The notes under the pieces: model-generated
Database searches by the model: none
What the model saw: only the letters and a program-made list of their open reading frames with translations
Told to the model about the DNA's origin: nothing
From: Candidatus Firestoneibacteriota bacterium
GTDB taxonomy: Bacteria; Oederibacteriota; D2-FULL-39-29; JBBTED01
DNA length: 64,000 bases
Reading direction: 5' to 3'
NCBI GenBank assembly: GCA_038042445.1
Contig: JBBTED010000021.1
Location: 68,085 to 132,084 of the forward strand
Translations under genes and position numbers: made by a program
Shown here: positions 8,596 to 47,809 of the stretch, one piece after another
Position numbering within the stretch: position 1 is the stretch's first letter
Layout of the letters: every line of letters begins with the position of its first letter

Positions 8596-9344
8596 TTCCG
8601 CACCTCCTCGCTGTCCCATAAAGGAATAACTATTACACCATTATCTATCTTTGCCCGAAAAAATGCCGGCATTGGATTATTGATGTCTGTAAAATCCATG
8701 TCGTAAAGCATAAAACCGAGTTCTCTTGTTTCATCAATAGGCTTTTTTTCTTTTTTCGGTTCTTCAATCAGCCTGAACATACACGAAAATTCGCGGCAAC
8801 CCAAATAAGGACGATTGAAACATTGCCCTTTTCGCGCGCGGCGTTCAAACATCGCGTTATATTTTCCCGGATTTTCGTCTTTTGGATCCCCTTCAAACTC
8901 AGTTTTTTCTTCTTTATCAATCAAATACTCTGGAACAGGACTATAAGTTTTACTTCTTTTACCTAACGGTATAAATACAAGTTCCGCGTGTATTCGATAT
9001 TTAACATCCCTCAAAAAAAGCCCCGCGCGTTGTTGACGAACATCTTCGATGAAAAGTCCATCTGTTCGGTCGCTCATTACCGCGCCAACCTCATTGCGTC
9101 TTACAGATATCCATTTAATTGGATTTAACACTTCAATCTTTTTAACCTGCCATCTGATTGCCGGCTTCCAGAAAATCGCTTCAAAAATCGCCCGGCTGGC
9201 AGATGGCGTGATAACATCATAACTCACGCGTTCAACCTTCATCTCAGGCCGGGTAAAACAGGCGTAATCGCCCCAGACTTCAAGGCAAAAAGTTTTGTTA
9301 AAAAATGTAGACATATTTTCAATATCCTCCTTTCTAATAACCAT
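8592..9344 (-). CDS. cas5: Type I-C Cas5c (Cas5d) pre-crRNA processing subunit
   Basis: FCLEVWGDYACFTRPEMKVERVSYDVITPSA is the classic Cas5d N-terminal motif. An alternative start at M (9314) is possible. Confidence 0.9.
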   Translation of the reverse strand: MVIRKEDIENMSTFFNKTFCLEVWGDYACFTRPEMKVERVSYDVITPSASRAIFEAIFWKPAIRWQVKKIEVLNPIKWISVRRNEVGAVMSDRTDGLFIEDVRQQRAGLFLRDVKYRIHAELVFIPLGKRSKTYSPVPEYLIDKEEKTEFEGDPKDENPGKYNAMFERRARKGQCFNRPYLGCREFSCMFRLIEEPKKEKKPIDETRELGFMLYDMDFTDINNPMPAFFRAKIDNGVIVIPLWDSEEVRK

Positions 9345-11688: not shown

Positions 11689-11699
11689 TTTAAACCTTT

Positions 11700-13070
11700 T
11701 TACCCTACGATGCCGTAGGTTCTTTGTTTGAAATCTACGGCTAATTCTTTGGCTATGTTCTTGCATTGTTCTATATCTACTGATGGTGCATCAACAGCAG
11801 TAACTACAACTTTTGGGATATGTTTTTTGCATTCCAGGATAAACTTTTTCATTTCATCATAAATAGAAACAGATTGCGCAAATTGACTCTGACAAAGTTT
11901 GTCATACTTGTCAGCAGTATCTGTATTTAAACTTATTGAAATTGTATCTATATACCTCGCAAGTTCTGGAACTATATTCCTATTATGTATCATATTTCCA
12001 TGACCATTAGTATTTATTCGCAAACGAATTCCTTTTGCCTTGAAAATTTTAGCGCTTTCCAAAATCAAATTCAAACGTATAAGAGGTTCTCCATATCCGC
12101 AATAAACTATTTCATCATAGTCATTTGGATTTTTCACCTCATTCATTATATCCTCAATTGTTGGTTCACGCTTTAATCTAAGATTATGACCTCGAACAAA
12201 ATCACTGTTATACCTCGCGCAAAATGTACAAGTATTTGAACAACGATTTGTTATATTTAAATATAATGAATTACGAATTTTATAAGATATTTTACTTGCT
12301 TCTTCAACACCAACTCTAAATAGATATTTCGCATTTATTGTTGTCCAATGTTCAACTTCAGCTAATTCTATGTTTTTAAGTTCTGCTATTTTTTGGGCTA
12401 CCTCTACAATATATGATGGCTCATTTCTCATACCTCTTTTAGATTGTGGAGGAAGATATGGAGCATCTGTTTCAAGTATTATCCTATAAATAGGTAATAG
12501 TTTTATTGTACTTTGCAATTTGACAGAATTAGGATAAGTGATTGTTCCTCCAATTGAGAAATAAAAACCCATATCCAAACATTCTTTCATCATCATCTCA
12601 TTGCCTGAAAAACAATGTAAAACTCCACCTATTTCCTGCGCATTTTCTTCTTTTAAGATTCTCAAAACATCGTTATGGGCATCTCTATCATGGACAACAA
12701 TTGGAAGTGCCAATTTATGCGCTAATTTTATCTGTGCCCTAAAATTTTTCTCCTGAGCTTCTTTTGAAGTAGTGCTTCTATAGTAATCCAACCCAGTTTC
12801 ACCAATTGCTACAACTTTTGGATTTTTGCCAAGAGCAAAAAACTTATCATAAGTTTCCTCTGACATAGTATTGGCATAATGCGGATGCACACCTATTGTT
12901 GTATAAATATTCTCGTATTTTTCAGATAAAGCAATGGATTGAATACTACTTTCAAGACAAGTGCCTATATTTACCAAATAATCTACACCTGATTCTTTTG
13001 CCCTGCGAATAACATCCTCGCGGTCAGAATCGTATTTTTTATCTTCTAAATGTATGTGTGTATCAATCAT
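11700..13070 (-). CDS. TatD-family metal-dependent DNase fused to a TatD-associated radical SAM domain
   Basis: N-terminus MIDTHIHLED...GETGLDYY...ETDAPYL is TatD hydrolase. The C-terminal half has the radical SAM motif CSNTCTFCAR and a glycine-rich SAM-binding region. Both fused in one 456-aa ORF. Confidence 0.75.
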   Translation of the reverse strand: MIDTHIHLEDKKYDSDREDVIRRAKESGVDYLVNIGTCLESSIQSIALSEKYENIYTTIGVHPHYANTMSEETYDKFFALGKNPKVVAIGETGLDYYRSTTSKEAQEKNFRAQIKLAHKLALPIVVHDRDAHNDVLRILKEENAQEIGGVLHCFSGNEMMMKECLDMGFYFSIGGTITYPNSVKLQSTIKLLPIYRIILETDAPYLPPQSKRGMRNEPSYIVEVAQKIAELKNIELAEVEHWTTINAKYLFRVGVEEASKISYKIRNSLYLNITNRCSNTCTFCARYNSDFVRGHNLRLKREPTIEDIMNEVKNPNDYDEIVYCGYGEPLIRLNLILESAKIFKAKGIRLRINTNGHGNMIHNRNIVPELARYIDTISISLNTDTADKYDKLCQSQFAQSVSIYDEMKKFILECKKHIPKVVVTAVDAPSVDIEQCKNIAKELAVDFKQRTYGIVG

Positions 13071-36081: not shown

Positions 36082-36190
36082 ATGTAAAGAATAAAAAAAC
36101 CACACCTATATAAGTGTGGTTTTTTTAAAACTCCAAACTAACGTGTAATTATCTGCGGATGTGCGGAGAGGTATATTAAACACACCGCAG
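36082..36190 (-). terminator. Bidirectional rho-independent terminator (36100-36127) plus about 65 nt conserved 3-prime UTR module, copy 1
   Basis: AAAAAAACCACACCTATATAAGTGTGGTTTTTTT hairpin flanked by A- and T-runs. The flanking ATGTAAAGAATAAAAAAACC and the AAACTA..CGT..GCGGAGAGGT..AAAC.CACC block recur at 42901-43010. Confidence 0.6.
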
Positions 36191-36233: not shown

Positions 36234-38519
36234 TTACCAGTTATATTTTAAACCGATGTAGCCAACATGTGCCGTAAAATCCCTAAGGCTGTCGCCCAAA
36301 AAAATTGCGTTGGGACTAGAAACACCGGCTGCTGTTAAACCTGCGACAACAGGGACATTCTCAACGGCAAAATCCTCAACATCAAAAATAGTCAGAATGT
36401 AACCTCCCACCAAAACCAATCCTTCACCAATCGTATATTCCGGACGAATAGCTAATTCCTGGAGTGCGCTCTTGGTATCTGCTGGATCAGTTTCAACCAC
36501 AGTAGTTGTTCCTGGAATATCGCTGACTGTTATTTTTCCCTTGCCTATGGAATAATTGTATCCCACCATAAGACCTAATTTGGACAAAGGAGAAAAATTC
36601 ATATCAACACCGATAGTATGAAAAATATCATTATTTGTAGCTGTCCAATCATTTGCTGCATCTTGAGTAAGCACTGCGCCTGAGACATTAGACCGTTCTG
36701 TTGACTTAACATTTTGGATGTCATAAAGTAAAGAAATATCGAAAGTTTCATCTAACATCCAATCTGCACTTACTGTTCCACCCTGAGCACTGGATTCCAG
36801 AATACCGTACATATAATTGGTATTAGTAGCAATACCACCAGTTAAATCACCTATACCTGGTTTATATTTATCATCACGGTTAAATGCAGCAAGAGAGAGT
36901 CCAATACCGCCAAGGTCTGTCCATTGAACAGTACCCTTAACTTCGTTTCGGTCCCTGTCTGCCACATCCACCCGACGCAATCCAGGAAGCTCAATCAAAT
37001 CGCCTGCAGAGTTTTTATAGTCACTAATCTCAAAATCATCCATTCGCCTTAATCCCAAAATATAACCAGCTCGGACAGAAAACGAGGAAACAGGTCTATA
37101 GACCAGAGTTCCACGCAAAACACTTTCCTTTGTCTTTTCCACCTCACGTTTTGTTCTTTCCATAATCTCAAGACCACCACCAGCCGAAGCAGTCACATTG
37201 GAAAATACATCCATATCAATATCCACATCCAGATTTTGTCTATGAGGACTATAAACCTTGCTAGTATAAATGCTTGAACTCCAGTTCTGGTCAGCGGTTG
37301 CTTTTCCAGGAAAAACGATTTCCACGGTCTTGTTGCTGACTACTTCGGAACGATAACCAACCCTTGTACCCAAAGAATCCCACGGTCTACTGCTTAAAAT
37401 ATAGGATTGATTAAAAATTCCCCTATTACCATTTAGGCTTGAAACAGGCAATGCAGTCGGATCATAGGCATTAACCGTAGGATTGGCATAAGATCCCGGA
37501 ACAATGGCTGTATTAATAGTATAAGGAAGAAAAATTGCGTTTTGTGTCAAAAGAGCATAACTCAAAGTGGTATGAAAATAACTGTTTAATGGAAGATCGA
37601 GCATATTCACGTTAAATGTAGCCATATGCTGAGTATTGTCTGGATAAAGTGAAGTCCGTCCGGATTTTGAATTCGTACCACCACTATAACCAGAGGCAGA
37701 AGCTTGATCAGTCAATCTTTTGGGATTATCCCAAGTCATTTCTGTTACCTTATTGTGAAATAAAGAATATTCGTAAGCAAGATCCACATTCCAATTTTTT
37801 TGCGTCAAAGATGTGTCCAAAGAAAACTTGGTTGTTTCATAATCAACAGGTTCAGGCAACTCAATTGTGAAAAAGCCCAAAGTTCCTCCAATTGCCTTGG
37901 TTCCGGATTTATTCTCACGATTTGCGCTAATTTTGAAGCCAACATCACCCAAACTGGGAAGACCAATATCAAACCCATAGGAATCTCTAAGCAACTTGAG
38001 GGGTACCGCATTTGTATTTTTGGCTAAATCCAACAACAGATCATTGGTTGTGGGAGACGTGGTAGTTGTGGATGCCTGTAGTTTCCGCTGTATCTCATCG
38101 GATAGAGTAAAAACTCCAGCACTGATTTCCGAAAAAGGCGTCCTTGAAATAAGACTAAGAGAATGAGGTGTCTTGTCCCACCATGCGCTAAAGGACAACC
38201 CATTTTCTCGTTTATAAAGAAACCTGGCGAACTGATCATCTCTCATCACGTTTTTAGCAGTGAAAGAAATACCATAATCTGGGCTTTCAAAATCAAGCCT
38301 GTATTTGTTAATAGAAAGCCCTTTAGGAATAACCCGGTATTCTTCAAATTTAGCTTCTTGAACGTCAAGGTTTTTATAGTTAAAACCAAACTCAATCTCC
38401 TGCTTGACGTTTTCCGCGGCAAAAAGAGACCCCGTCATAATTACGAGTGCACACAAAAACAGTATTCGCATTTGTTTTCCCCTCCTCATTAGATTTATAA
38501 CTTCTTCTTCAATTTCCAT
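36234..38519 (-). CDS. MtrB/PioB-like large outer-membrane beta-barrel (porin-cytochrome conduit sheath)
   Basis: 761 aa. Signal peptide (MRILFLCALVIMTGSLFAA), beta-strand periodicity throughout, C-terminal ...GYIGLKYNW. Immediately downstream of a decaheme cytochrome in the same operon. Confidence 0.5.
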   Translation of the reverse strand: MEIEEEVINLMRRGKQMRILFLCALVIMTGSLFAAENVKQEIEFGFNYKNLDVQEAKFEEYRVIPKGLSINKYRLDFESPDYGISFTAKNVMRDDQFARFLYKRENGLSFSAWWDKTPHSLSLISRTPFSEISAGVFTLSDEIQRKLQASTTTTSPTTNDLLLDLAKNTNAVPLKLLRDSYGFDIGLPSLGDVGFKISANRENKSGTKAIGGTLGFFTIELPEPVDYETTKFSLDTSLTQKNWNVDLAYEYSLFHNKVTEMTWDNPKRLTDQASASGYSGGTNSKSGRTSLYPDNTQHMATFNVNMLDLPLNSYFHTTLSYALLTQNAIFLPYTINTAIVPGSYANPTVNAYDPTALPVSSLNGNRGIFNQSYILSSRPWDSLGTRVGYRSEVVSNKTVEIVFPGKATADQNWSSSIYTSKVYSPHRQNLDVDIDMDVFSNVTASAGGGLEIMERTKREVEKTKESVLRGTLVYRPVSSFSVRAGYILGLRRMDDFEISDYKNSAGDLIELPGLRRVDVADRDRNEVKGTVQWTDLGGIGLSLAAFNRDDKYKPGIGDLTGGIATNTNYMYGILESSAQGGTVSADWMLDETFDISLLYDIQNVKSTERSNVSGAVLTQDAANDWTATNNDIFHTIGVDMNFSPLSKLGLMVGYNYSIGKGKITVSDIPGTTTVVETDPADTKSALQELAIRPEYTIGEGLVLVGGYILTIFDVEDFAVENVPVVAGLTAAGVSSPNAIFLGDSLRDFTAHVGYIGLKYNW

Positions 38520-38547: not shown

Positions 38548-39492
38548 TTACCGCATAAAATAAACACCCGATGGATGATTTGATCCATGTATATTCACAT
38601 GACAATTTTGGCAAGAACGATTAATAATGCGAGAGTTTTGTTGTTTCACAGCCGAATCATCATAAAGTGTGCTCGGGTGCCTAGTCCCCACATGACACCG
38701 CTGACATAAAAGAAACGGACTTTTGGCTATGAGCATCTTGTCCTGCAAAGAACCATGAGCATCGTGACAAGTCAAACAATTTTCCTGAACAGGAGCATGC
38801 TCCCAAAGAAAAGGACCACGCTTTTCCGCATGACAGGTAAGACAAAGCTCCCTTGTAGAAGCAGTTTTTAAATTTTTGGCATATGGGGATCCATGAGGGT
38901 CGTGGCAAGTAACACAGGAAAGTTTTCCCTCCTTAGTCGGCATATGAGAAGCTTTAGACATATGAGCCTTTTTATCTTTATGACATTGAAAACAATTTTC
39001 AGTCGACGTTTTCTTTTTCAGCAATTTCCCCTGATCCGGTCCCGGCACAGAAGATTTATGAGAATTGTGACAAGAATTACAGGTTAAACCTTGACGCGAA
39101 TGTGTGCTCCCCTTCCAATTAGGATGGGTGTTGCCATGACATTGCAAACAAGAATTTGCTAATTCTTTTGGATTTGTCTTTGGTCCAAGAATAGTGGCAT
39201 AACCAGCCGCATTTTTATCTCCTGCAGCTTCCGCATGAAGCGAACCTGCACCATGACAAGTTTCACAATGTTCAGCTTGATTCAATTGCTTTTCTTTAAC
39301 AAACGTTTTCGCATGAAAACTTTTTTGAAATTCCTTTCCATGGTCATCATGACAAGTCATACATTTCTCAGAACCAATATGTCCAGCTTTTTCCTCTGAG
39401 TACGTAACTCGCACAAGAGTAAAAAAACATACAATGCTTACAATACAAAATATATTTACTATATATTTCATTTTACCCATATTATCCTCCAT
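38548..39492 (-). CDS. MtrA/PioA/DmsE-family periplasmic decaheme cytochrome c
   Basis: 314 aa with a signal peptide and ten CxxCH motifs: CMTCH, CETCH, CLQCH, CNSCH, CFQCH, CVTCH, CLTCH, CLTCH, CQRCH, CQNCH. Confidence 0.75.
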   Translation of the reverse strand: MEDNMGKMKYIVNIFCIVSIVCFFTLVRVTYSEEKAGHIGSEKCMTCHDDHGKEFQKSFHAKTFVKEKQLNQAEHCETCHGAGSLHAEAAGDKNAAGYATILGPKTNPKELANSCLQCHGNTHPNWKGSTHSRQGLTCNSCHNSHKSSVPGPDQGKLLKKKTSTENCFQCHKDKKAHMSKASHMPTKEGKLSCVTCHDPHGSPYAKNLKTASTRELCLTCHAEKRGPFLWEHAPVQENCLTCHDAHGSLQDKMLIAKSPFLLCQRCHVGTRHPSTLYDDSAVKQQNSRIINRSCQNCHVNIHGSNHPSGVYFMR

Positions 39493-39556: not shown

Positions 39557-39573
39557 TGCAATTTTCGTGCCAA
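39557..39573 (-). promoter_or_regulatory. Sigma-54 (-24/-12) promoter upstream of the decaheme cytochrome operon
   Basis: The minus strand reads TTGGCACGAAAATTGCA, a perfect TGGCACG-N4-TTGCA. It lies about 65-80 nt upstream of the start codon at 39492. Confidence 0.7.
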
Positions 39574-39661
39574 CTTTTTAAAATATTTACGATTTTTTTG
39601 TGTAGGTTTTATCAATAGATTTACAAGGACAATTTATAATCTTAAAACTTGTATAGATTTA

Positions 39662-39697
39662 TGTGTATTTTTACACACAACTGTGTAAAAATACACA
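39662..39697. promoter_or_regulatory. Inverted-repeat candidate enhancer (UAS) for the sigma-54 promoter
   Basis: TGTGTATTTTTACACA-CAAC-TGTGTAAAAATACACA is a perfect 16-bp inverted repeat about 100 bp upstream of the -24 element. Confidence 0.5.
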
Positions 39698-39750
39698 GTT
39701 TAGATTAGAGATTGTGAGATAATTCTATTTTCTAGCTTTTTTCTGTACTG

Positions 39751-39820
39751 GTAGTCGCAAGCTTTAGCTTGCGGTATTATAGCTTTTACCATTTTTCCGC
39801 AGGCTAAAGCCTGCGACTAC
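39751..39820. repeat. MITE-like palindromic element (family D), copy 2
   Basis: GTAGTCGCAAGCTTTAGCTTGCGG-N22-CCGCAGGCTAAAGCCTGCGACTAC; same 24-nt inverted arms as at 32140. Confidence 0.7.
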
Positions 39821-39867
39821 CATATATAATATAACACAGTCTAAATGGCAGTTATAGAACAATCTCT

Positions 39868-41277
39868 TTATTCTTTTGATTCAAGAATTCCTAACTTTAT
39901 TGCTCTATATCTCAAAGAATCACGACTAATTCCAAGAATTTTTGCGGCCCGCACTTGATTCCCATTCGTTTTATGCAATGCCTGCAAAATAAGTTCTTTT
40001 TCAAATTCTTTGAGTGTAGATTTTTCTTTGGCTGTTTTGTTAAATTCTGGCATTTCTCCTTCATAACTTCTTAATTCTAAAGGCAAATGAGTAAGATTAA
40101 TATTCTCTACCGCTCCGATTATAATTGCACGTTCTATAATATTTTTTAATTCTCTTATATTCCCAGGCCAGTGATACCGCAAAAAAACATTTTTTACTTC
40201 CTTAGACAAAACAGGTGGATTTTTTTTCTTCAATTCATAGCTATATTGTTTCAAAAAATGCTCTGTGAGTAAAATAATATCTTCCATCCGTTCTCTAAGT
40301 GGAGATAATTTTAAAGTAAAAGCATTTAATCGATAATATAAATCATTACGGAATTCGCCTATTTTAATTGCCTTGGTTAAATCTTTATTTGTTGCTGCAA
40401 TAATTCCAACATTAACTTCTATATCTGAAACAGCACCCAGTGGTCTAAAAGATTTATTTTCAATTAATTGCAAAATTTTTGCCTGAAGACTTAGACCCAT
40501 ATCACCTATTTCATTTAAAAATAATGTTCCTTCATCTGCACTATGCACAAGACCTTTTTTTGCTTGTTTTGCATCTGTAAACGCGCCCTTTTCATAACCA
40601 AACAATTCACTTTCAAGCAAATTATCCGGTATAGCAGCACAATTTATCTCAACGAATGGCTTCTTTATCCTTTTACTTTCGTAATGTATTGCTTTTGCAA
40701 GAATATCCTTACCTGTGCCACTCTCCCCACAAATTAAAATTGGAGATGCACTGCTATTTACTAATTTTTTTGCAAATTCCACTACTTCCAGTATTGACTT
40801 GTTTTTCCCTACAATACTAGAAAAACTATATTGCCTTAATTGTTGATTCCTTAACGATTTTGCTTCCACATAAACACTTGCATTTTCAATAACTTTATCA
40901 ATAAGCAATCTTAACTCATCTAAATCAAATGGTTTATTAATATAATCATTCGCTCCTCTTTTCATAGCCTCTATAGCAGTAGAAATGTCTCCAAAAGCTG
41001 TAATCATTATCACAGGAATTTCTAAATCGGATTCTTTTATTTTTTTCAAAATTTCCAAACCATCAATTCCAGGGAGCTTAATATCACATAAAACCAAATG
41101 AGGATGAAAATTTATAAATTTTTCAAAACCATCTTCGCCAGTTTCTGCCACTACTATATCATAACCATATTTAAATAAATTTTCCTTCAAAGACCACCTT
41201 ATTAATTCCTCGTCATCAATTACTAAAATTTTCTTTTTAATCATAATTTTTTCCCTTATGGTTGATATTCTTTTCAC
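39868..41277 (-). CDS. Sigma-54-dependent response regulator (NtrC family: REC-AAA+-HTH)
   Basis: REC domain (ILVIDDEELIRWSL...D), sigma-54 interaction domain (GESGTGKD...GAFTDA...ESELFGYEKGAFT) and C-terminal Fis-type HTH. Confidence 0.9.
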   Translation of the reverse strand: MKRISTIREKIMIKKKILVIDDEELIRWSLKENLFKYGYDIVVAETGEDGFEKFINFHPHLVLCDIKLPGIDGLEILKKIKESDLEIPVIMITAFGDISTAIEAMKRGANDYINKPFDLDELRLLIDKVIENASVYVEAKSLRNQQLRQYSFSSIVGKNKSILEVVEFAKKLVNSSASPILICGESGTGKDILAKAIHYESKRIKKPFVEINCAAIPDNLLESELFGYEKGAFTDAKQAKKGLVHSADEGTLFLNEIGDMGLSLQAKILQLIENKSFRPLGAVSDIEVNVGIIAATNKDLTKAIKIGEFRNDLYYRLNAFTLKLSPLRERMEDIILLTEHFLKQYSYELKKKNPPVLSKEVKNVFLRYHWPGNIRELKNIIERAIIIGAVENINLTHLPLELRSYEGEMPEFNKTAKEKSTLKEFEKELILQALHKTNGNQVRAAKILGISRDSLRYRAIKLGILESKE

Positions 41278-41287
41278 CAGACCATAT

Positions 41288-42778
41288 TCAATTTTTATTC
41301 ACAGGAAGTTTTATAACAAAACAGGTTTTTTTCACTTCCTCACTTGTAAATTCAATTATTCCATTATGCATTTTAACAATATTCTGGCTGGTAAAAAGCC
41401 CTAAACCTGTACCACCAGGCTTTGTTGTAAAAAAAGGCTGAAAAATTTTGTCTACATATTTACTTGGTATTCCTTTTCCAGTATCACAAATTGAAATTAT
41501 CACAAAATCATCTAAAAGTGAAGTGTTTATAGCTAACACTCCACCTTTAGGCATTGCACTGATTGCATTCAAAAAAATATTTACAAAAACCTGAAGTATT
41601 AATTCTGCGTCTAAATTTAAATCAGGAATTTCCTTACTGTACTGTTTTTCTACTTTTATTTGATGATCAGTAATATGTTTATGGACAAAGAAAAAAGCTT
41701 TTTCAATAATCTCCTGAATGTTAACACTTTTTATTTCTAATGTTATTGGCTTAGAATAATTTAACAAATTTTCAACAGTTTTTGCTAATCTATTCACCTG
41801 AATATTTATTTTTTCATATATTTCTTTTTGTATCGGTATTTTTGCAGATTGCTCTAATGTCTGAAAAGCAGCTTTTATACCTGCCAATGGATTTTTAATC
41901 TCATGAGCTAAACTTGCGTAAAGTTTTCCTAAAGATGCAAGTCTATCTGCATGGGCAATCTGTTCCTGATGATATTTCTATATTGATTCTTTAGATTGTT
42001 TCAGATTATCCACCATTTTATTGAAATTTTCAGCTAAAACATCCAATTCATTATTTTCTTTAATATCCACATTTACATTCAAATCACCCTGACTTACTTT
42101 ATTAAATGCTAAAAGCAATTTTTGTATAGGACGATTCACTACCTTTTTCATAAAAAATACAAGTACAAGTGATATAACTAATAAAATAGCAAGAGTCATT
42201 ATAATATGCATTTTAGCATTATCCATTATATTATCCATAAGAGATTTCCATGAAATGGATATTTCCAAAAAACCTATTATACTTTCATTTGACTTATGAC
42301 AACCATAACATTTCTTTTTATTTACAATTTGCTGTTTAAATACATAAATAGGTTCTCCATTTTTATAAGTCAGTTCTGCGGATTTATTATTTTTTGATAC
42401 AGACTCAACTTTTAATATTCTAACACCAGACAAATGTTGTCCTTCATTTAAATTTTTTAGTACACTATCCAATTTTTTCTGTTTGCCAGATAACATAATA
42501 TCTTCAATACTTTTAAGGATAGTATCTGCTATAACTTTTGCATGTTCTGATTCAGCTTTCAACCATTCTTTTTTTTGAAATTTTATATCAAAATAACCGG
42601 CAATTAAACTTACAATAGAAAATACCAAAATAATAACAAAAACCAATTGGAAACTTAAATTACGATGAACTTTTCGCATATTTTTTATACACCACACAAA
42701 ATTCACAGGTTTTATGAGTTCCAAGCACTTCATCACACATTGTATTTTTAATTTCCCAGCATGGTAATTTATGGCCAA
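41288..42778 (-). pseudogene. Sensor histidine kinase with periplasmic CxxCH heme motif, split by an in-frame TAG (41978-41980) just upstream of the H-box
   Basis: The upstream part (41978-42778) has TM segments, periplasmic CYGCHK and HAMP (...NFNKMVDNLKQSKESI*). In the same frame after the TAG comes KYHQEQIAHADRLASLGKLYASLAHEIKNPL (DHp H-box), then the HATPase_c domain (41288-41887; the track ORF starts at TTG). Confidence 0.65.
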
Positions 42779-42872
42779 AGTAAGAAGGACAAGTTTTATA
42801 AACAGAACAATCTTTCATTTTCCAACAAGGTATTTTGTCTGTCCAAAAACTTTTGGTTTCATTCATAGGCAA
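42660..42872 (-). CDS. Small Cys-rich protein (9 Cys; duplicated PCW-x3/4-C motif)
   Basis: 70 aa MPMNETKSFWTDKIPCWKMKDCSVYKTCPSYFGHKLPCWEIKNTMCDEVLGTHKTCEFC. Immediately upstream of, and overlapping, the sensor kinase; a coding call is plausible but unverified. Confidence 0.4.
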   Translation of the reverse strand: MPMNETKSFWTDKIPCWKMKDCSVYKTCPSYFGHKLPCWEIKNTMCDEVLGTHKTCEFCVVYKKYAKSSS

Positions 42873-42900: not shown

Positions 42901-43010
42901 ATGTAAAGAATAAAAAAACCCATGCCTATAATAGACATGGGTTTTTTACAAACTACACGTATTTTGTCATACGGCACGCGGGAGGTGTAACAAACGCACC
43001 ATTATCATAG
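42901..43010 (-). terminator. Bidirectional terminator (42918-42947) plus conserved 3-prime UTR module, copy 2
   Basis: ATGTAAAGAATAAAAAAACCCATGCCTATAATAGACATGGGTTTTTT, then a block homologous to 36126-36190. Confidence 0.6.
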
Positions 43011-43046: not shown

Positions 43047-44201
43047 TTAGAACATATATTGAGCTTCTATAGAAAATTTGTTTGTGTTTTTGGCACTCGC
43101 CTGACTAAGTGTATATTCGCCTACGAATCTGCCATACATATATGGTCTCCAGACCAAACCCATTACAGGTCCCTGTGTTTCATCAACAGTTTTTTCTGTA
43201 TTAGAATCAAAATAGTCATACCTCACATAAGGAGTCACTACATCTGAAAGCAGTTTATACCCTACTTCAAGATAACCACCAAGACTATACTGTTTGTCAG
43301 CACCTGCATTTTTTGTATTTCTTCCTGACAATAAAAGTCCTGTTAATGTCCAGGTTGAAGTAAAATAATTGAACATAGGGCCAACTTGATAGAAATTGTC
43401 ATCAAAACCAGTCATTGGAGCTTGTCCTATGTATCCATACATTCCAACTATACTTCCATCACTATCTAATTCATAATCAGCAGTAACATATACGTCTTTA
43501 AAATTATTATTATCTACTACGTTAAAATTACTAGCACCTGTGCCATTAACTACACCCAAAGAAGCCATAACATTCCAACTACATTTATGGCTTAATTCTA
43601 TGCCATAATTTCTTTGGAATGGTTTATACGGATTGCTTCCAACAACACTTGTAAGAGCTAATGATCTGTCCTTCCCTAATCTTCCACCTGTTCCATGAAT
43701 ATATAGAAGCTGTGAAAGAATCTGACCGAATCTAACTGTTGTATAACTCTTTTCATCTCCTGTGGTATACTGAATAAATGCTTCTGCTAATTTGCTACGG
43801 GCAAAATCATTAAAATCACTTGTTCCAGAATTTTTGCCTGAATTTTCATGAAAATACATTTCTGCAAAATATGAAAATCCACTACCCAATGCACCTCCTG
43901 TATACAAAGAAAATGCATGCTGTTCAAAGCTGCTTATTTTTTTATCTTCAGCATTAAATCTGACTTTCCCAGTAAAACTTGCATAATCACTCAAATTCTT
44001 TCCTGCTTCTTCATTTGCCATCATATGGCCCATTCTTAAAAAATCCTGACCTGTTTTGTTAAGCTTATTTACATTCCAATGACACATAGTGCAATCAGCA
44101 CCATATTTTCTCGCCCATGCTGCAATTGCAAAAGAATCTTTTGCAACTACACCTAAAGCAAAAGTAATTATTGCAATTACTAACAACATTTTTGCTTTCA
44201 T
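43047..44201 (-). CDS. Cyc2-like fused monoheme cytochrome c / outer-membrane beta-barrel (candidate Fe(II) oxidase or EET porin-cytochrome)
   Basis: 384 aa. Signal peptide MKAKMLLVIAIITFALGVVA, then a single CxxCH (CTMCHW) about 15 aa after the predicted cleavage site. The remainder has beta-barrel-like alternating strands and ends ...IEAQYMF. Confidence 0.5.
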   Translation of the reverse strand: MKAKMLLVIAIITFALGVVAKDSFAIAAWARKYGADCTMCHWNVNKLNKTGQDFLRMGHMMANEEAGKNLSDYASFTGKVRFNAEDKKISSFEQHAFSLYTGGALGSGFSYFAEMYFHENSGKNSGTSDFNDFARSKLAEAFIQYTTGDEKSYTTVRFGQILSQLLYIHGTGGRLGKDRSLALTSVVGSNPYKPFQRNYGIELSHKCSWNVMASLGVVNGTGASNFNVVDNNNFKDVYVTADYELDSDGSIVGMYGYIGQAPMTGFDDNFYQVGPMFNYFTSTWTLTGLLLSGRNTKNAGADKQYSLGGYLEVGYKLLSDVVTPYVRYDYFDSNTEKTVDETQGPVMGLVWRPYMYGRFVGEYTLSQASAKNTNKFSIEAQYMF

Positions 44202-44713: not shown

Positions 44714-44979
44714 ATATATTATATAGCTGCAGAGCAAAGCTCTGCTAAAAAACAGCAAAGCTTTCGCTTTGCTGCTACATAAACCATACAAAATCCATTA
44801 AATATTAGAATGGTTAATCTATTATACATTATTTATGCAAGAACTATGCCAATTTTTTAATGTATTATAAAATGTATTGAAATTACTGTAGTTATATTGA
44901 TAAATTTAATAGTTAATAGAAGAATATTACCATAGATAATTGTATTGTTTTAGGACAATATTTGAATAGTTGTATTATT

Positions 44980-46350
44980 TTAAGACAAATCTTTAGATAT
45001 TGAATATTGCTGGATTTTCCTATAAAGAGTATCTCTGGATATTCTTAATATTTCAGCAGCTTTTAATTTATTTCCATTTGTAGATTTAAGAACTGAAATT
45101 ATAGCAGATTTTTCTGATTCCTCAAGGGAACATACTTTTACAGTATCAGAATTATTAGTTTCTAATACTCGCATATGCGAAGGTAAATCCTGTTCAACAA
45201 AAATATTTTTATTCACTTTAATTGCGAATAAACCTTCTATTAAATTTTCCAATTCACGAACATTGCCTGGCCAGTTGTATTTTACTAAAACATCCAATGC
45301 TTCACGTTCAAAACCCTCTACTTTCTTTTTGTATTTATCATTAAATTTATCAATAAAATATTTCACAAGAAGTGGAATATCTTCTTTTCTTTCTCTAAGT
45401 AGAGGAATTGTGATAGTAATAGTGCTTAATCTATAGTACAGTTCCTTTCTTATGCCACTTTTATTTCCATCAGAAATTATATTATGCGATGATGCAGCAA
45501 GAATTCTTACATTTACAGCTATTTCTTTTATATCACCTACAGGCCTTATTTTTTTGTCCTGAAGGACTCTTAAAAGTTTTGCCTGACTTTCCTTTGGCAT
45601 TTCACTAATTTCATCAAGCAATATTGTCCCTCCTTCACTTGCTCTGAATATACCTATATAATCCGAATTCGCACCTGTAAAACTTCCTTTTTTATAACCA
45701 AAAAGTTCACTCTCAACAAGATTTGAAGGAATACCTCCACAATTTATCGGCATAAATGTATTATTTTTTCTATTACTTAAATTATGTATTGCTCTTGCAA
45801 CAAGTTCTTTTCCAACACCAGTTTCTCCAAGTATCAAAACAGGACAATCTACAGATGCCGATGCCCTTATTCTATCAAAAACATTTTTCATTAATTTACT
45901 TTCTCCAATAATATTTTCGATGCTATATTTCGAATTAAGCTGGCTCTGTAAATGAGCAACATCAGTCTCAAGTTTCATTATTTTAAATAAGCGATTAATA
46001 CAAATCATAATCTGATCTTTAGTAAAAGGTTTAATTATATAATCAGAAGCTCCCATTTTTATTGCTGTAACTGCATCCTGAATTGTTCCATAACCAGTCA
46101 TCATAATAACTTCAATAGCAGGACTATGTTCTTTGATTTTTTTCAAAAGCTCAAATCCATTCATTTGACCCATTCTAATATCGGTTATAATAATTTTAAC
46201 GTCCTGCTCAATCTTGATTTTCTCAATAGCTTCCTCACCAGAATATGCCTTAACAGTAGAAAATCCCTGTCTTAAAAAAAGTTTTGCGCAGGTCTCTACC
46301 ATACCCTTATCATCATCAACAATTAAAATTTTTATCATATCATGTATCAT
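44980..46350 (-). CDS. Sigma-54-dependent response regulator (NtrC family), paralog 2
   Basis: REC, AAA+ sigma-54 activator (GETGVGKE...ESELFGYKKGSFTGA) and HTH domains; 456 aa. Confidence 0.9.
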   Translation of the reverse strand: MIHDMIKILIVDDDKGMVETCAKLFLRQGFSTVKAYSGEEAIEKIKIEQDVKIIITDIRMGQMNGFELLKKIKEHSPAIEVIMMTGYGTIQDAVTAIKMGASDYIIKPFTKDQIMICINRLFKIMKLETDVAHLQSQLNSKYSIENIIGESKLMKNVFDRIRASASVDCPVLILGETGVGKELVARAIHNLSNRKNNTFMPINCGGIPSNLVESELFGYKKGSFTGANSDYIGIFRASEGGTILLDEISEMPKESQAKLLRVLQDKKIRPVGDIKEIAVNVRILAASSHNIISDGNKSGIRKELYYRLSTITITIPLLRERKEDIPLLVKYFIDKFNDKYKKKVEGFEREALDVLVKYNWPGNVRELENLIEGLFAIKVNKNIFVEQDLPSHMRVLETNNSDTVKVCSLEESEKSAIISVLKSTNGNKLKAAEILRISRDTLYRKIQQYSISKDLS

Positions 46351-46423: not shown

Positions 46424-47809
46424 TCACTTCAATATTGGAAAACTTATTGTAAAAGTTGTATATTTATTTACTTCACTTGCAACAGTAATTGTTCCTCTGA
46501 GTTCTTCTATTAGTTTCCTACATATCGCTAAACCAAGACCTGTTCCATTCTTTGCTTCTTTTGTAGTAAAAAATGGCTCAAATATTTCGTTGAGGTTTTC
46601 TTTAGATATACCAGAACCATCATCTGTAAAATCAACCTCTATAAAATTATTATCAATAACTTTTGTTTTCACACTAATAGTTCCACCCTTTTCAATAGCA
46701 TCAAAGGAATTAGAAAAAAGGTTTAAAAAAATCTGTTCAAGTTGATCACAAGATGCAAGCACTTTCACTTTATCAGTTTCAGCAACGTCTATTTTCAAAG
46801 AGACATCATTCTTTCTAAAAATGTGGCTAAGTATTTCTATTATATCAGTTAAAACTTTATTGAAGTTACATTCCTGCAATTTTTCTTTTGCTTTAGTAGA
46901 ACGAGAAAAACCCAACAAATGTTCAACTATTTCTTTGCACCGTTGTAATTGATGATTTATAAATTTTAATTCTCCAAGATAACTTTTGTTTTTTATATCT
47001 TCCATCAACATTTCTGCACGTAACATTGCAGAAGCTAATGGAGTTTTCATTTGATGTGCGATTCCAGCCGCAATTTGTCCAACCAATACCATTTTATCAA
47101 CCCTATTTATTTTTTCTTCCTGAAGCCTTACAATTTCTTCCTGTGAATTCTCCAAAGCATTTAACATTGAATTGAATTGTTTTGAAATAACTCCAAATTC
47201 ATCATTTCTGGATACAGATAAACGTTTTTTTGTAACACCCTTTTCTACCTGCTTCATCGCATCCAATAATACTTTTATAGGCGTATTTACTATAAAAAAT
47301 ATTGCTAAGCCAATCAAAAGTGAAGTGATTATTACAATAGCAAAAAAAGAGTATATATGTATTTTTAACTCTTTTTTTACACGTAATAAAGCAGGAGTAA
47401 TAGATTTAGAAATACGTATATATCCTAATACAGGTTTTGTATTTTTATGACATTTAAAACACTCTTTTTTGTTAAAAATTGGAACAAAATAAACAAAATT
47501 ATCCCTTAAATCTATATTTACACCCTTTGCTATTATCTTAACCTCTTGATTGCTATTCAAAATCGTAATTTCATTAAAACCAATATTTAATACGAGTTTT
47601 TTTATAAATTTTTCTATTTCACCAATTTTTTTATCCAACATTGAATTTTCAATCTGTTGATGAATTGTTTTACAAAAAAGATTTAGCCGACGTGTTTCAT
47701 CATCAATAACCCATTCATTTGTGTGAGATATCTCTACATATAAATATAACCCAAGCAATACAAACAGAATAAATGTTATTGCAATAATTAATTTAAAAGC
47801 TATTTTCAT
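46424..47809 (-). CDS. Sensor histidine kinase with periplasmic CxxCH heme-binding motif (intact paralog)
   Basis: TM, periplasmic domain with NKKECFKCHKNTKP, second TM, HAMP, H-box GIAHQMKTPL, HATPase_c (GTGLGLAICRKL); 461 aa. Confidence 0.85.
   Translation of the reverse strand: MKIAFKLIIAITFILFVLLGLYLYVEISHTNEWVIDDETRRLNLFCKTIHQQIENSMLDKKIGEIEKFIKKLVLNIGFNEITILNSNQEVKIIAKGVNIDLRDNFVYFVPIFNKKECFKCHKNTKPVLGYIRISKSITPALLRVKKELKIHIYSFFAIVIITSLLIGLAIFFIVNTPIKVLLDAMKQVEKGVTKKRLSVSRNDEFGVISKQFNSMLNALENSQEEIVRLQEEKINRVDKMVLVGQIAAGIAHQMKTPLASAMLRAEMLMEDIKNKSYLGELKFINHQLQRCKEIVEHLLGFSRSTKAKEKLQECNFNKVLTDIIEILSHIFRKNDVSLKIDVAETDKVKVLASCDQLEQIFLNLFSNSFDAIEKGGTISVKTKVIDNNFIEVDFTDDGSGISKENLNEIFEPFFTTKEAKNGTGLGLAICRKLIEELRGTITVASEVNKYTTFTISFPILK

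What the first reader, a model, noticed from the sequence alone, without database searches (positions are those of the whole stretch)
39557..39697. Perfect sigma-54 promoter with an upstream 16-bp inverted-repeat enhancer driving the decaheme operon
The minus strand reads TTGGCACGAAAATTGCA (TGGCACG-N4-TTGCA) about 70 nt upstream of the cytochrome start. About 100 nt further upstream is TGTGTATTTTTACACA-N4-TGTGTAAAAATACACA, ideal geometry for a bacterial enhancer-binding protein. The adjacent gene (39868-41277) encodes an NtrC-type sigma-54 activator whose partner kinase carries a heme-c sensor motif. This gives a complete, testable regulatory circuit: redox/heme sensing, then NtrC-like activator, then sigma-54 promoter, then porin-cytochrome conduit.
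Basis: partly seen in the sequence, partly recalled or inferred. Interest (0 to 1): 0.55.

Follow-up and report, generated by a model that had tools for sequence, protein, structure and literature searches.

The report
Sigma-54 promoter with AtoC-like enhancer
In front of an outer-membrane electron-conduit operon (MtrA/MtrB) of an uncultured groundwater bacterium lie a perfect sigma-54 promoter and a perfect 36-bp palindromic activator site, laid out almost exactly like the E. coli AtoC/atoDAEB control region: a sound but ordinary regulatory prediction that gives a testable handle on how such conduits are switched on.

Summary
TGGCACGAAAATTGCA (39572..39557, minus strand) is the only perfect sigma-54 consensus match in 64 kb (0.04 expected). 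The 16+4+16 inverted repeat (39662-39697) is the only perfect repeat of that size in the window; none occurred in 200 shuffles.

Each arm is itself a TGTGTA-N4-TACACA palindrome, so there are two dimer sites 20 bp apart. With C of the GC at -12 they span -151..-116. That matches the experimentally verified AtoC enhancer of E. coli (-149..-109), which has the same gene order: kinase, regulator, repeat, promoter, operon.

The downstream genes are a ten-heme MtrA/DmsE cytochrome and an MtrB/PioB porin. The upstream regulator has REC, AAA+ and HTH_8 domains. Its kinase has a periplasmic CXXCH domain whose model best matches the Geobacter heme-c sensors GSU0935/GSU0582.

A parallel kinase/regulator/sigma-54 module sits in front of a Cyc2-like gene.

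Caveats:
- This genotype's kinase carries a TAG nonsense SNP; four of five sister assemblies have GAG.
- The regulator's Walker B is Asn-Glu, not Asp-Glu.
- rpoN was not seen.
- No orthologous promoter exists for footprinting.
- The repeat is absent from the second promoter.

Verdict: a new member of a known kind, of modest interest.

The parts
39557..39572 (-). Sigma-54 promoter P1. TGGCAC (-24 element, GG at 39571-39570), N5, TTGCA (-12 element, GC at 39559-39558). The predicted TSS is about 39546.
   Evidence: Only perfect consensus match in 64 kb, 0.04 expected. Scores 12/12. It is intergenic and on the same strand as mtrA.
39662..39677 (.). Promoter-proximal 16-bp palindrome TGTGTA-N4-TACACA. 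Its centre is 99 bp upstream of the GG, about -123.5. Putative RR1 dimer site.
39682..39697 (.). Distal 16-bp palindrome, with symmetry extending to 22 bp (AACTGTGTA-TTTT-TACACAGTT, 39700..39679). Its centre is about -143.5 and it lies 20 bp centre-to-centre from the proximal site.
39868..41244 (-). RR1, an NtrC/AtoC-class enhancer-binding response regulator with REC (Asp54), an AAA+ sigma-54 interaction domain and HTH_8. It has a GAFTDA loop and the Walker B sequence LFLNEI (Asn244).
   Evidence: Pfam. NCBIfam best match is AtoC, below its cut-off. 41% identical to E. coli AtoC. Motifs. Called as 458 aa in sister assemblies.
41288..42679 (-). HK1, a sensor histidine kinase with two TM helices, a periplasmic CXXCH (CYGCH) PAS/Cache-like domain, HAMP, HisKA and HATPase_c. 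In this window it is interrupted by TAG at 41980-41978.
   Evidence: The SNP is T here versus G in four of five other assemblies. The sensor fold best matches 3B42/3B47.
38548..39480 (-). mtrA-like periplasmic decaheme cytochrome (ten CXXCH, signal peptide). GGAGG lies 5 nt before the ATG.
   Evidence: TIGR03508 scores 236 bits against a cut-off of 192. Pfam, motif count, sequence.
36234..38519 (-). mtrB/pioB-like outer-membrane beta-barrel porin, starting 28 nt after mtrA.
   Evidence: PF11854 scores 247.9 bits. TIGR03509 scores 197 bits, below its 240 cut-off.
36092..36127 (.). Bidirectional intrinsic terminator that ends the mtrAB transcript: a G+C stem flanked by A7/T7 runs.
   Evidence: I4.
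39749..39822 (.). REP-like 74-nt hairpin made of two inverted 23-nt units, lying between the RR1 stop and the enhancer. It probably marks the 3' end of the HK1-RR1 transcript and is not specific to this promoter.
   Evidence: Fold z = -10. The same units occur at 32141-32192 and 44246-44268. No Rfam family matched.
44836..44851 (-). Second sigma-54-like promoter P2 (TGGCATAGTTCTTGCA), 128 nt after the RR2 stop and upstream of a 131-aa ORF and the Cyc2-like gene.
44943..44960 (.). 18-bp palindrome TATTGTCCTAAAACAATA, the only perfect 6+6 dyad upstream of P2. Its centre is 102 bp upstream of the P2 GG. Weak candidate RR2 site.
   Evidence: It is not statistically significant on its own.
44980..46338 (-). 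RR2, a paralogous NtrC-class activator, 38% identical to RR1, with a GSFTGA loop and a Walker B Asp-Glu.
46424..47809 (-). HK2, a paralogous kinase with CFKCH at the same place in its periplasmic domain. It is intact.
43047..44201 (-). Cyc2-like gene: signal peptide, a single CTMCH, then about 340 aa ending ...AQYMF (barrel-like). It is followed by a terminator at 42913-42947.
   Evidence: No Pfam or NCBIfam hit. 'Cyc2-like' rests on architecture only.

Best explanation
P1 is a sigma-54 (RpoN) promoter for a two-gene mtrA-mtrB operon, and the 36-bp repeat is its enhancer (UAS).

Proposed steps, all inferred:
1. Two dimers of the adjacent response regulator RR1 bind, through their Fis-type HTH_8 domains, to the two TGTGTA-N4-TACACA palindromes centred near -123.5 and -143.5. 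The 20-bp spacing puts them on roughly the same face of the helix.
2. The partner kinase HK1 perceives a periplasmic signal through a covalently bound heme c in its PAS/Cache-like domain. The signal could be redox state or a small ligand such as NO or O2; it is unknown.
3. HK1 phosphorylates RR1 on Asp54.
4. RR1 assembles into an AAA+ ring on the enhancer.
5. The 81% A+T spacer loops, and ATP hydrolysis opens the closed sigma-54 holoenzyme complex.
6. Transcription starts near 39546, giving a 66-nt leader and a GGAGG RBS, and ends at the terminator at 36092-36127.

Shown here: the sequence elements, their statistics, the gene content, the domain architectures and the geometry match to AtoC. 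Inferred: binding, sigma-54 dependence, the TSS, the signal, and the ATPase competence of RR1.
For: Promoter and repeat:
- Perfect, unique sigma-54 consensus.
- Unique perfect 16+4+16 repeat made of two palindromes.
- No credible sigma-70 promoter in the intergenic region.

Local parallel:
- The window's only two bEBP genes are each followed on the same strand by the window's only two sigma-54 sites scoring at least 10/12.
- Each of those sites faces an outer-membrane cytochrome gene.

Match to the AtoC system:
- RR1 has REC, Sigma54_activat and HTH_8.
- All 120 top homologs carry a G[AS][FY]TDA loop; 112 have GAFTDA.
- RR1 is 41% identical to AtoC.
- The E. coli atoS-atoC-[41-bp inverted repeat]-[TGGCAC-N5-TTGCT]-atoD region has the same gene order. 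Its repeat spans -149..-109, against -151..-116 here.
- That repeat is the experimentally verified AtoC site (PMC3118216).

The repeat does not look like a local terminator:
- The two nearby terminators are G+C stems flanked by A7/T7 runs. The repeat has no T-run.

The kinase/regulator family and cytochromes:
- The closest RR1 homolog (L127) is paired with a PF21563-type kinase and is followed 89 bp later by TGGCATGATTTTTGCA.
- Homologous kinase/regulator pairs sit next to a 45-heme cytochrome (L131), next to ResB/CcsA (L128), and next to mtoD-mtoA-mtoB in seven gammaproteobacterial loci.

Precedent:
- In Geobacter, the response-regulator bEBP BccR drives the cbcBA cytochrome operon from a sigma-54 promoter.
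Against: - No comparative support was obtainable. Five other assemblies of this region are at least 99.8% identical to the window, and the three that span the RR1-mtrA intergenic region match it exactly. No ortholog is closer than 53% for RR1 or 44% for MtrA.
- rpoN is absent from the window and from about 18 kb of flanks.
- RR1's Walker B Asp is Asn, where 118 of 120 homologs have Asp-Glu. By my recollection of NtrC D239 and PspF D107 mutant work, that change impairs ATP hydrolysis. The Asn is shared by the closest homolog, so it may be a tolerated clade trait.
- HK1 is truncated by TAG in this genotype.
- The repeat is not found at the second sigma-54 promoter or anywhere else in 82 kb. The only other perfect 16-mer is inside cas3.
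- There is no strict IHF consensus in the spacer, only one site with one mismatch.
- Of 46 distant mtrA loci, only one (L002) has a bEBP plus a sigma-54-like site upstream.
- The double palindrome occurs 70 times in JGI metagenomes, always in unrelated contexts.
Confidence: 0.6

Rival explanations
1. The promoter is a real sigma-54 promoter, but the repeat is the operator of a different DNA-binding protein. One candidate is a CRP/FNR-type dimer, since TGTGT-N6-ACACA resembles TGTGA-N6-TCACA. In that case the repeat either modulates P1 or activates an overlapping sigma-70 promoter: the TATAAA at 39638..39633 would place the proximal site near -43.5, a class II position.
For: Each 16-mer matches 8 of the 10 core positions of the CRP consensus (sequence; the consensus is from my own knowledge). 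A -10-like TATAAA lies about 35 bp downstream of the proximal site. Shewanella mtr genes are known to be CRP-dependent (my own knowledge).
Against: The sigma-70 scan found no candidate there. TATAAA-like hexamers are common in DNA that is 81% A+T. Two sites spaced 20 bp apart and centred more than 100 bp from a perfect sigma-54 promoter, next to a bEBP gene, reproduce the AtoC layout. No CRP/FNR-family gene was seen in the locus.
Confidence: 0.1
2. The repeat acts at the RNA level. It would be a 16-bp hairpin at the 3' end of the HK1-RR1 transcript, serving as a terminator, a processing site or a stability element rather than a protein-binding enhancer.
For: It folds as a perfect hairpin in the predicted structure of the read-through RNA. 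The terminator scan flagged it weakly on the plus strand. It lies 171 nt downstream of the RR1 stop codon.
Against: The sense strand has no U-run after the stem, and only 4 of 16 pairs are G-C. The two bona fide local terminators look different: G+C stems flanked by A7/T7 runs. A much stronger REP-like hairpin already sits between RR1 and the repeat. An RNA hairpin does not need each arm to be internally palindromic.
Confidence: 0.1
3. P1 is activated by the paralogous RR2, or by mixed RR1/RR2 rings. RR1 would then be a hydrolysis-poor (Walker B Asn) partner or an occupant that tunes or represses the enhancer.
For: RR1 has Asn in Walker B whereas RR2 has Asp-Glu. The two modules are adjacent and paralogous: the regulators are 38% identical, and the kinases share the CXXCH sensor. 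Both candidate sites share a TGT-N6-ACA core.
Against: The flanking bases of the two palindromes differ. The Asn-Glu variant is shared with RR1's closest homolog, which also precedes a sigma-54 site. That argues for a functional clade trait rather than a dead protein.
Confidence: 0.1
4. Both elements are chance matches or non-functional relics.
For: A third perfect TGTGTA-N4-TACACA lies inside cas3 with no obvious function. Sigma-54 motifs can be bound without driving transcription (abstract of PMC4591121, seen).
Against: Expected counts are 0.04 for the promoter and 0 in 200 shuffles for the repeat. Position, orientation and the neighbouring genes all fit.
Confidence: 0.03

Closest known systems
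E. coli AtoS-AtoC / atoDAEB control region
   Same: - Gene order is the same: kinase, NtrC-class regulator, inverted-repeat enhancer, TGGCAC-N5-TTGC promoter, target operon, all on one strand.
- The enhancer is an inverted repeat of two sites just downstream of the regulator gene.
- It spans about -150 to -110: -149..-109 in E. coli, -151..-116 here.
- The AtoC repeat is experimentally verified (PMC3118216).
- RR1 is 41% identical to AtoC over its full length, and AtoC is its best NCBIfam match.
   Different: - RR1 scores 452 bits against a 714-bit equivalog cut-off, so it is not an AtoC ortholog.
- The half-site sequences differ (GCTATGCAGAAATTTGCACA against TGTGTATTTTTACACA).
- Here each arm is itself a palindrome.
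- The target is an electron conduit, not fatty-acid catabolism.
- The kinase sensor is a periplasmic heme-c domain.
- The loop is GAFTDA, and Walker B is Asn-Glu.
NtrB-NtrC / glnAp2 (archetypal enhancer-dependent sigma-54 promoter)
   Same: Two dyad-symmetric dimer sites more than 100 bp upstream nucleate an AAA+ ring that contacts sigma-54 holoenzyme by DNA looping (review PMC7175178). The regulator is a REC-AAA+-HTH_8 protein.
   Different: The site sequence, the signal and the target all differ. TIGR01818 scores 389 bits against a 559-bit cut-off.
Geobacter sulfurreducens BccR (GSU0598) / cbcBA
   Same: A REC-AAA+-HTH response regulator is required for sigma-54-dependent, redox-potential-linked induction of a respiratory multiheme cytochrome operon (bioRxiv 10.1101/2021.04.15.440034).
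   Different: BccR is transcribed divergently from its target. The target is an inner-membrane bc-type complex, not an outer-membrane porin-cytochrome. No enhancer sequence is described in the passages I read.
Periplasmic heme-c sensor domains of Geobacter GSU0935/GSU0582 (PDB 3B42, 3B47; Pfam PF21563)
   Same: - The HK1 periplasmic domain model (pLDDT 90.8) has these as its top three PDB matches, best E = 2.6e-5.
- A single CXXCH lies near the C-terminal end of the domain.
- 106 of 107 family representatives keep that motif.
   Different: - The Pfam score is below gathering (20.6 against 27 bits).
- TM-scores are only about 0.4.
- The output domain here is a histidine kinase, not a chemoreceptor.
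- Heme attachment is untested.
MtoAB / PioAB / MtrAB porin-cytochrome conduits
   Same: A decaheme DmsE/MtrA-family cytochrome is immediately followed by an MtrB/PioB barrel. As in Mto/Pio-type clusters, there is no MtrC.
   Different: The host is a Candidatus Firestonebacteria MAG. MtrA is at most 44% identical to any species-representative genome searched. A search of the paper library for sigma-54 together with MtoA, MtrA or PioA showed no such link among the papers listed.

Membership tests
Sigma-54 (RpoN)-dependent promoter | -24 GG and -12 GC elements at fixed spacing, matching TGGCAC-N5-TTGCW | tested here: met
   Matches 12 of 12 specified positions. It is the only perfect match in 64 kb, with 0.04 expected. 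The consensus TGGCACN5-7TTGCT is quoted in PMC12316311.
Sigma-54 (RpoN)-dependent promoter | Intergenic position, oriented toward a gene, at a plausible leader distance | tested here: met
   Lies 76 nt upstream of the mtrA ATG on the same strand, within a 387-bp intergenic region.
Sigma-54 (RpoN)-dependent promoter | The organism encodes sigma-54 (rpoN) | not testable with these tools
   No RpoN box in any of the six frames of the window. No Sigma54 domain among the genes called in about 18 kb of flanks. The other contigs of the MAG could not be fetched. Two bEBP genes imply that rpoN is present.
Sigma-54 (RpoN)-dependent promoter | A TSS about 12 nt downstream of the GC, and transcription abolished without rpoN or the bEBP | not testable with these tools
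   Requires 5' RACE, dRNA-seq or reporter assays.
bEBP upstream activating sequence (enhancer) | Dyad-symmetric site or sites roughly 80-150 bp upstream of the -24/-12 elements | tested here: met
   Two 16-bp palindromes centred 99 and 119 bp upstream of the GG. The verified AtoC repeat is centred 104.5 bp upstream of its GG.
bEBP upstream activating sequence (enhancer) | Conserved in orthologous promoters | tested here: inconclusive
   Five other assemblies of the region are at least 99.8% identical to the window, so the identical intergenic region in the three that span it is uninformative. No closer relatives exist in the collections searched.
bEBP upstream activating sequence (enhancer) | Recurs at other targets of the same regulator | tested here: not met
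   Absent from P2 and from 82 kb of the contig. The only other perfect 16-mer is inside the cas3 CDS. A single-target regulator, as AtoC was first thought to be, would explain this.
bEBP upstream activating sequence (enhancer) | Bound by the cognate bEBP | not testable with these tools
   Requires EMSA, a footprint or ChIP.
NtrC-class response-regulator bEBP | [quoted passage not shown] | tested here: met
   PF00072 (106 bits), PF00158 (218 bits) and PF02954 (52 bits). Asp54 lies in LVLCDIKLP.
NtrC-class response-regulator bEBP | GAFTGA sigma-54 contact loop | tested here: met
   RR1 has GAFTDA. All 120 closest homologs have G[AS][FY]TDA, 112 of them GAFTDA, so this is the subfamily norm.
NtrC-class response-regulator bEBP | Intact Walker A and Walker B (hhhhDE) ATPase motifs | tested here: not met
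   Walker A (GESGTGK) is intact. Walker B is LFLNEI, with Asn244 in place of Asp. 118 of 120 homologs have Asp-Glu; only P0001 and P0054 share Asn-Glu. The functional consequence is unknown.
AtoC (equivalog NF008469) | Score at or above the curated cut-off | tested here: not met
   452 bits against a 714-bit cut-off. RR1 works like AtoC but is not an AtoC ortholog.
Periplasmic heme-c PAS/Cache sensor domain (PF21563 / GSU0582-GSU0935 type) | Conserved CXXCH at the C-terminal end of the periplasmic domain | tested here: met
   CYGCH in HK1 and CFKCH in HK2. 106 of 107 profile hits carry CXXCH at the equivalent place. Caveat: the two-sequence profile itself rewards the motif.
Periplasmic heme-c PAS/Cache sensor domain (PF21563 / GSU0582-GSU0935 type) | Pfam gathering score | tested here: not met
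   PF21563 scores 20.6 and 21.6 bits against a cut-off of 27. PF11845 scores 13 and 19 bits against 24.
Periplasmic heme-c PAS/Cache sensor domain (PF21563 / GSU0582-GSU0935 type) | Fold similarity to the solved domains | tested here: met
   The model has pLDDT 90.8. The top three PDB hits are 3B42_B, 3B42_A and 3B47, with E-values from 2.6e-5 to 2.9e-3 and probability 1.0. TM-scores are only about 0.4.
Periplasmic heme-c PAS/Cache sensor domain (PF21563 / GSU0582-GSU0935 type) | Covalently bound heme c | not testable with these tools
   Requires heme staining or spectroscopy of the expressed domain.
MtrAB/MtoAB/PioAB porin-cytochrome conduit | Periplasmic decaheme cytochrome of the DmsE/MtrA family | tested here: met
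   TIGR03508 scores 236 bits against a cut-off of 192.2. Ten CXXCH motifs.
MtrAB/MtoAB/PioAB porin-cytochrome conduit | Adjacent MtrB/PioB beta-barrel | tested here: met
   PF11854 scores 247.9 bits against a cut-off of 23. The NCBIfam subfamily model TIGR03509 is not reached (197 against 240 bits). The gene starts 28 nt after mtrA.

The most novel reading that the evidence does not exclude
The locus may hold two tandem, insulated modules. Each would consist of a periplasmic heme-c sensor kinase, a GAFTDA/GSFTGA-type enhancer-binding regulator and a sigma-54 promoter, and each would switch a different outer-membrane electron conduit: a Cyc2-like fused cytochrome-porin and MtrAB.

The same kinase/regulator family sits next to multiheme cytochromes or cytochrome-c biogenesis genes in several phyla:
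- a 45-heme protein in L131
- ResB/CcsA in L128
- mtoD-mtoA-mtoB in Gammaproteobacteria

If this association is real, it would be a widespread, dedicated 'periplasmic heme state controls extracellular-electron-transfer gene expression' system, and the first regulatory circuit proposed for Mto/Cyc2-type conduits. The small clade with Asn in Walker B (RR1, P0001, P0054) might use an unusual ATPase mechanism or work in mixed rings.
Probability: 0.25. Interest if true: 0.6.

Novelty: new member of a known kind. Interest (0 to 1): 0.38.

Why it matters
The literature searches run here found no regulator described for MtoAB/PioAB/Cyc2-type outer-membrane electron conduits in iron-oxidising or electron-uptake bacteria. 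Known cases use other logic: CRP in Shewanella and FixK in Rhodopseudomonas (both from my own knowledge), and BccR for an inner-membrane complex in Geobacter.

This locus offers a compact hypothesis that can be tested by synthesis. It comprises a 36-bp enhancer, a perfect sigma-54 promoter, a defined regulator and a heme-c sensor kinase, in an uncultured phylum (Firestonebacteria) not previously linked to extracellular electron transfer. All parts can be tested heterologously without cultivating the organism.

The recurring link between this kinase/regulator family and multiheme cytochromes suggests the logic may be general. As a regulatory architecture, however, it is textbook.

Tried and rejected
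1. **Phylogenetic footprinting.** Other assemblies of the locus (L047-L052) are 99.8-100% identical to the window, and the three that span the RR1-mtrA intergenic region match it exactly, so they carry no information. Searches of 5.8 billion proteins with RR1 and of GTDB species genomes with MtrA found nothing closer than 53% and 44%.

2. **Sigma-54 control across MtrAB loci.** Of 46 distant loci, only L002 (Myxococcales) has a bEBP plus TGGCACGTATCTGGCT upstream. Seven gammaproteobacterial loci have HK1/RR1 homologs but sigma-70-like promoters. Sigma-54 control is therefore not a conserved feature of MtrAB.

3. **JGI metagenome scan for TGTGTA-N4-TACACA-N2-8-TGTGTA-N4-TACACA.** It gave 70 hits. 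All were tandem or low-complexity repeats or contigs of about 20% G+C that looked like giant viruses. None was near a bEBP, kinase or MtrA gene. This was uninformative.

4. **Same repeat upstream of the Cyc2-like gene or elsewhere in 82 kb.** Absent.

5. **A cascade in which P2 reads through into HK1-RR1.** Rejected, because a terminator lies at 42913-42947.

6. **The big hairpin at 39749-39822 as part of the control region or a known RNA.** Rejected. It is a dispersed REP-like unit with no Rfam family.

7. **The TAG in HK1 as recoding.** Rejected. It is a G-to-T SNP relative to four of five sister assemblies.

8. **IHF site.** No strict consensus, only one site with one mismatch.

9. **Word-based search with the HK1 sensor.** It found only HAMP matches. 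The exhaustive profile search was needed.

10. **phmmer of the sensor domain against PDB sequences.** No hits. The fold search was needed.

11. **rpoN.** Not found in the available sequence.
Full report
**Observation**

Reading the minus strand confirms both elements at the stated coordinates:
- TTGGCACGAAAATTGCA at 39573..39557.
- TGTGTATTTTTACACA-GTTG-TGTGTAAAAATACACA at 39697..39662.

The consensus TGGCAC-N5-TTGCW has exactly one perfect match in the 64-kb window, against 0.04 expected from dinucleotide-preserving shuffles. I then required the invariant GG and GC and at least 10 of 12 specified positions. Only two sites exist on either strand: this one (12/12) and TGGCATAGTTCTTGCA at 44851..44836.

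The repeat has 16-nt arms, 100% complementarity and a 4-nt spacer. It is the only perfect inverted repeat with arms of at least 16 nt and a loop of at most 10 nt in the window. None appeared in 200 shuffles.

Each arm is itself a palindrome, TGTGTA-N4-TACACA. The element is therefore two 16-bp dyad sites 20 bp apart centre to centre. The distal site's symmetry extends to 22 bp. The perfect 16-mer occurs three times in the window against 0.00 expected. The third copy (10382-10397) is inside the cas3 coding sequence and has no evident function.

**Genes**

The source is a Candidatus Firestonebacteria MAG from Hainich groundwater well H52.

Downstream of the promoter:
- A 310-aa DmsE/MtrA-family cytochrome (39480..38548). 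TIGR03508 scores 236 bits against a cut-off of 192. It has ten CXXCH motifs and GGAGG 5 nt before the ATG.
- 28 nt later, a 761-aa MtrB/PioB porin (38519..36234).
- A typical bidirectional terminator at 36092-36127 ends the operon.

Upstream of the promoter:
- RR1 (41244..39868) has REC, Sigma54_activat, AAA_lid and HTH_8 domains.
- HK1 (42679..41288) has two TM segments, a periplasmic domain with CYGCH, then HAMP, HisKA and HATPase_c.

**A second, parallel module**

The window holds only two enhancer-binding protein (bEBP) genes. The other one, RR2 (46338..44980), has its own kinase, HK2, with CFKCH in the equivalent position. It is followed 128 nt later, on the same strand, by the second sigma-54-like site. 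That site faces a 131-aa ORF and a 384-aa Cyc2-like protein (signal peptide, one CTMCH, barrel-like C-terminus).

So the only two sigma-54 sites scoring at least 10/12 in 128 kb of scanned strand both lie in the short spacers just downstream of the only two bEBP genes. Both have the right orientation, and each faces an outer-membrane cytochrome gene. At one mismatch the count of the second site is unremarkable (2.17 expected). Its position is what counts.

The two modules are insulated by a terminator at 42913-42947.

The only perfect 6+6 dyad upstream of P2 is TATTGTCCTAAAACAATA. It is centred 102 bp from the P2 GG. The proximal P1 palindrome is centred 99 bp from its GG.

**What the repeat is**

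The sigma-70 scan found no candidate in the intergenic region apart from two weak hits overlapping the RBS; shuffles gave 4.1.

As RNA the repeat would form a hairpin. However, it has no U-run and only 4 G-C pairs, unlike the two genuine terminators nearby.

A much stronger 74-nt hairpin (39749-39822; z = -10) lies between the RR1 stop and the repeat. It consists of two inverted copies of a 23-nt unit, TAGTCGCARGCTTTAGCYTGCGG. The same unit recurs at 32141-32192 and 44246-44268. It is therefore a dispersed REP-like element and not part of the control logic. Rfam gives only sub-threshold miRNA-type hairpin matches.

**Closest known system**

RR1's best NCBIfam match is AtoC (452 bits, below the 714 cut-off), and RR1 is 41% identical to E. 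coli AtoC. I fetched the E. coli atoS-atoC-atoD region:
- Thirteen nt after the atoC stop lies the 41-bp inverted repeat GCTATGCAGAAATTTGCACA-G-TGCGCAATTTTCTGCATAGC.
- 104.5 bp downstream of its centre is the GG of TGGCACTCCCCTTGCT.
- With C of the GC at -12, the ato repeat spans -149..-109 and the repeat here spans -151..-116.

[quoted passage not shown] Gene order, strand, repeat type and distance are thus the same.

General bEBP behaviour fits this: pairs of DNA-binding domains bound to one or more UAS sites, DNA looping, and a GAFTGA loop that contacts sigma-54 (PMC7175178).

A precedent for a response-regulator bEBP driving a respiratory cytochrome operon is Geobacter BccR/cbcBA. A search of the paper library for sigma-54 together with MtoA, MtrA, PioA or Cyc2 showed no such link among the papers listed.

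**The sensor**

Pfam gives only sub-threshold hits for the HK1 and HK2 periplasmic domains: PF21563 (the Geobacter Mcp40H-20 sensor) and PF11845 (Tll0287, also called Cache_heme).

An exhaustive profile search built from HK1 and HK2 found 107 cluster representatives. Of these, 106 carry CXXCH at the equivalent position, and many have a kinase H-box. The two-sequence profile itself favours the motif, which is a caveat.

An AlphaFold model built on 27 sequences has pLDDT 90.8. Its top three PDB matches are the periplasmic heme-c sensor domains of GSU0935 and GSU0582, with E-values from 2.6e-5 to 2.9e-3. The WalK extracellular PAS/Cache domain comes next. The 'heme-c sensor' reading is therefore supported by fold and by conservation. 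Heme attachment and the sensed signal remain untested.

**The family elsewhere**

- The closest RR1 homolog (P0001, 52% identical, contig L127 at 30% G+C) is paired with a PF21563-type kinase. It is followed 89 bp later by TGGCATGATTTTTGCA.
- P0002 lies in a ResB-CcsA-HK-RR cluster.
- P0054 sits next to a 1128-aa protein with 45 CXXCH motifs and a CXXCH-sensor kinase.
- Seven gammaproteobacterial mtoD-mtoA-mtoB loci have a homologous kinase/regulator pair transcribed divergently. In the five kinases aligned, CLACH plus a C-X4-CH motif aligns with the HK1 motif. Their promoters look sigma-70-like.

The link between this two-component family and cytochromes therefore recurs. The use of sigma-54 for MtrAB does not: only one of 46 loci, L002, shows it.

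1. In this window HK1 carries an in-frame TAG (41980-41978) between HAMP and the H-box. Four of five other assemblies of the same population have GAG there, and one Logan assembly shares the T. It is a segregating nonsense SNP or a consensus error, so the circuit is not complete in this genotype.
2. RR1's Walker B is LFLNEI. 118 of the 120 closest homologs have Asp-Glu, and only P0001 and P0054 share Asn-Glu. From my recollection of NtrC D239 and PspF D107 work, this Asp is needed for Mg-ATP hydrolysis. Its presence in RR1's nearest relatives suggests a tolerated clade trait, but ATPase competence is uncertain.
3. The GAFTDA loop is not a defect. All 120 homologs have G[AS][FY]TDA.
4. rpoN is not in the window or in about 18 kb of flanks.
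5. No comparative conservation test was possible. The metagenome scan for the double palindrome returned only unrelated contexts.

**Verdict**

The elements are real and far from chance. The best explanation is an AtoC-like enhancer plus a sigma-54 promoter that drives mtrAB under a heme-c-sensing two-component system (confidence about 0.6).

It is a new member of a known kind of regulatory architecture. It is worth recording because it gives a synthesisable, testable circuit for an Mto/Pio-type conduit in an uncultured phylum, and because a second parallel module controls a Cyc2-like gene. It is not surprising to a sigma-54 specialist.

Noticed in passing
window 41978-41980 (minus strand): HK1 carries an in-frame TAG between HAMP and the H-box. 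It is a G-to-T SNP: four of five other assemblies of the same groundwater population have GAG (Glu), and one Logan assembly shares the TAG. It is either a segregating loss-of-function allele of the sensor kinase or a consensus error.
   Followed up: yes
window 40513-40515 (minus strand; RR1 residue 244): The Walker B Asp of RR1 is Asn (LFLNEI). 118 of 120 closest homologs have Asp-Glu. The two others with Asn-Glu are its nearest homolog (L127) and P0054 (L131). All three are paired with kinases of the CXXCH-sensor type: a CXXCH motif was checked directly in HK1 and the L131 kinase, while the L127 kinase has only a faint PF21563 hit.
   Followed up: partly
window 42913-47809: A second parallel module: HK2 (CFKCH sensor), RR2, the sigma-54-like site 44851..44836, a 131-aa ORF, a Cyc2-like monoheme barrel protein (44201..43047), then a terminator at 42913-42947. 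The candidate RR2 site is TATTGTCCTAAAACAATA at 44960..44943.
   Followed up: partly
window 32141-32192, 39749-39822, 44246-44268: A dispersed REP-like 23-nt G+C-rich hairpin unit, TAGTCGCARGCTTTAGCYTGCGG. There are five copies: two inverted pairs forming long hairpins and one solo copy, all intergenic. A differently sequenced double hairpin lies in the P2 leader (about 44735-44790; z = -5.5).
   Followed up: partly
window 42660-42866 (minus strand): A 68-aa Cys-rich ORF (repeated C-W and CxxC motifs) overlaps the HK1 start by 20 nt. It has no Pfam or NCBIfam family. In L131, the HK upstream of P0054 is split into a 100-aa and a 415-aa ORF in a comparable position.
   Followed up: no
window 1547-2178 and 7405-11766: A CRISPR array (32-nt repeat GTTTCAATCCACGCGCCCACGCGGGGCGCGAC, spacers of about 34 nt) lies near cas3 (9355..11766) and a cas5-like gene (8592..9344), in a stretch of higher G+C (36-38%). 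A perfect TGTGTAGCTGTACACA lies inside cas3.
   Followed up: no
L131 627-4013: A 1128-aa protein with 45 CXXCH motifs lies immediately upstream of a CXXCH-sensor kinase and an RR1 homolog, in a JGI metagenome contig.
   Followed up: no
L011, L018, L025, L029, L045 (also L023, L028): Gammaproteobacterial/Lysobacterales loci have a 460-aa FAD-type oxidoreductase, an HK and an RR on one strand, divergent from a monoheme lipoprotein, mtoA and mtoB. In the five loci with a complete kinase, the sensor has CLACH plus a C-X4-CH motif that aligns with the HK1 CXXCH.
   Followed up: partly
window 52552-52579: A 28-bp perfect palindrome, GTAGGGAACAAAAATTTTTGTTCCCTAC, lies in the spacer between a DeoR-C-like ORF and a REC-HD gene.
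   Followed up: no
L123 1-7710 (beyond the high end of the window): A sister assembly continues past the window into an integrase, AlpA and HTH gene cluster, probably an integrated mobile element.
   Followed up: no
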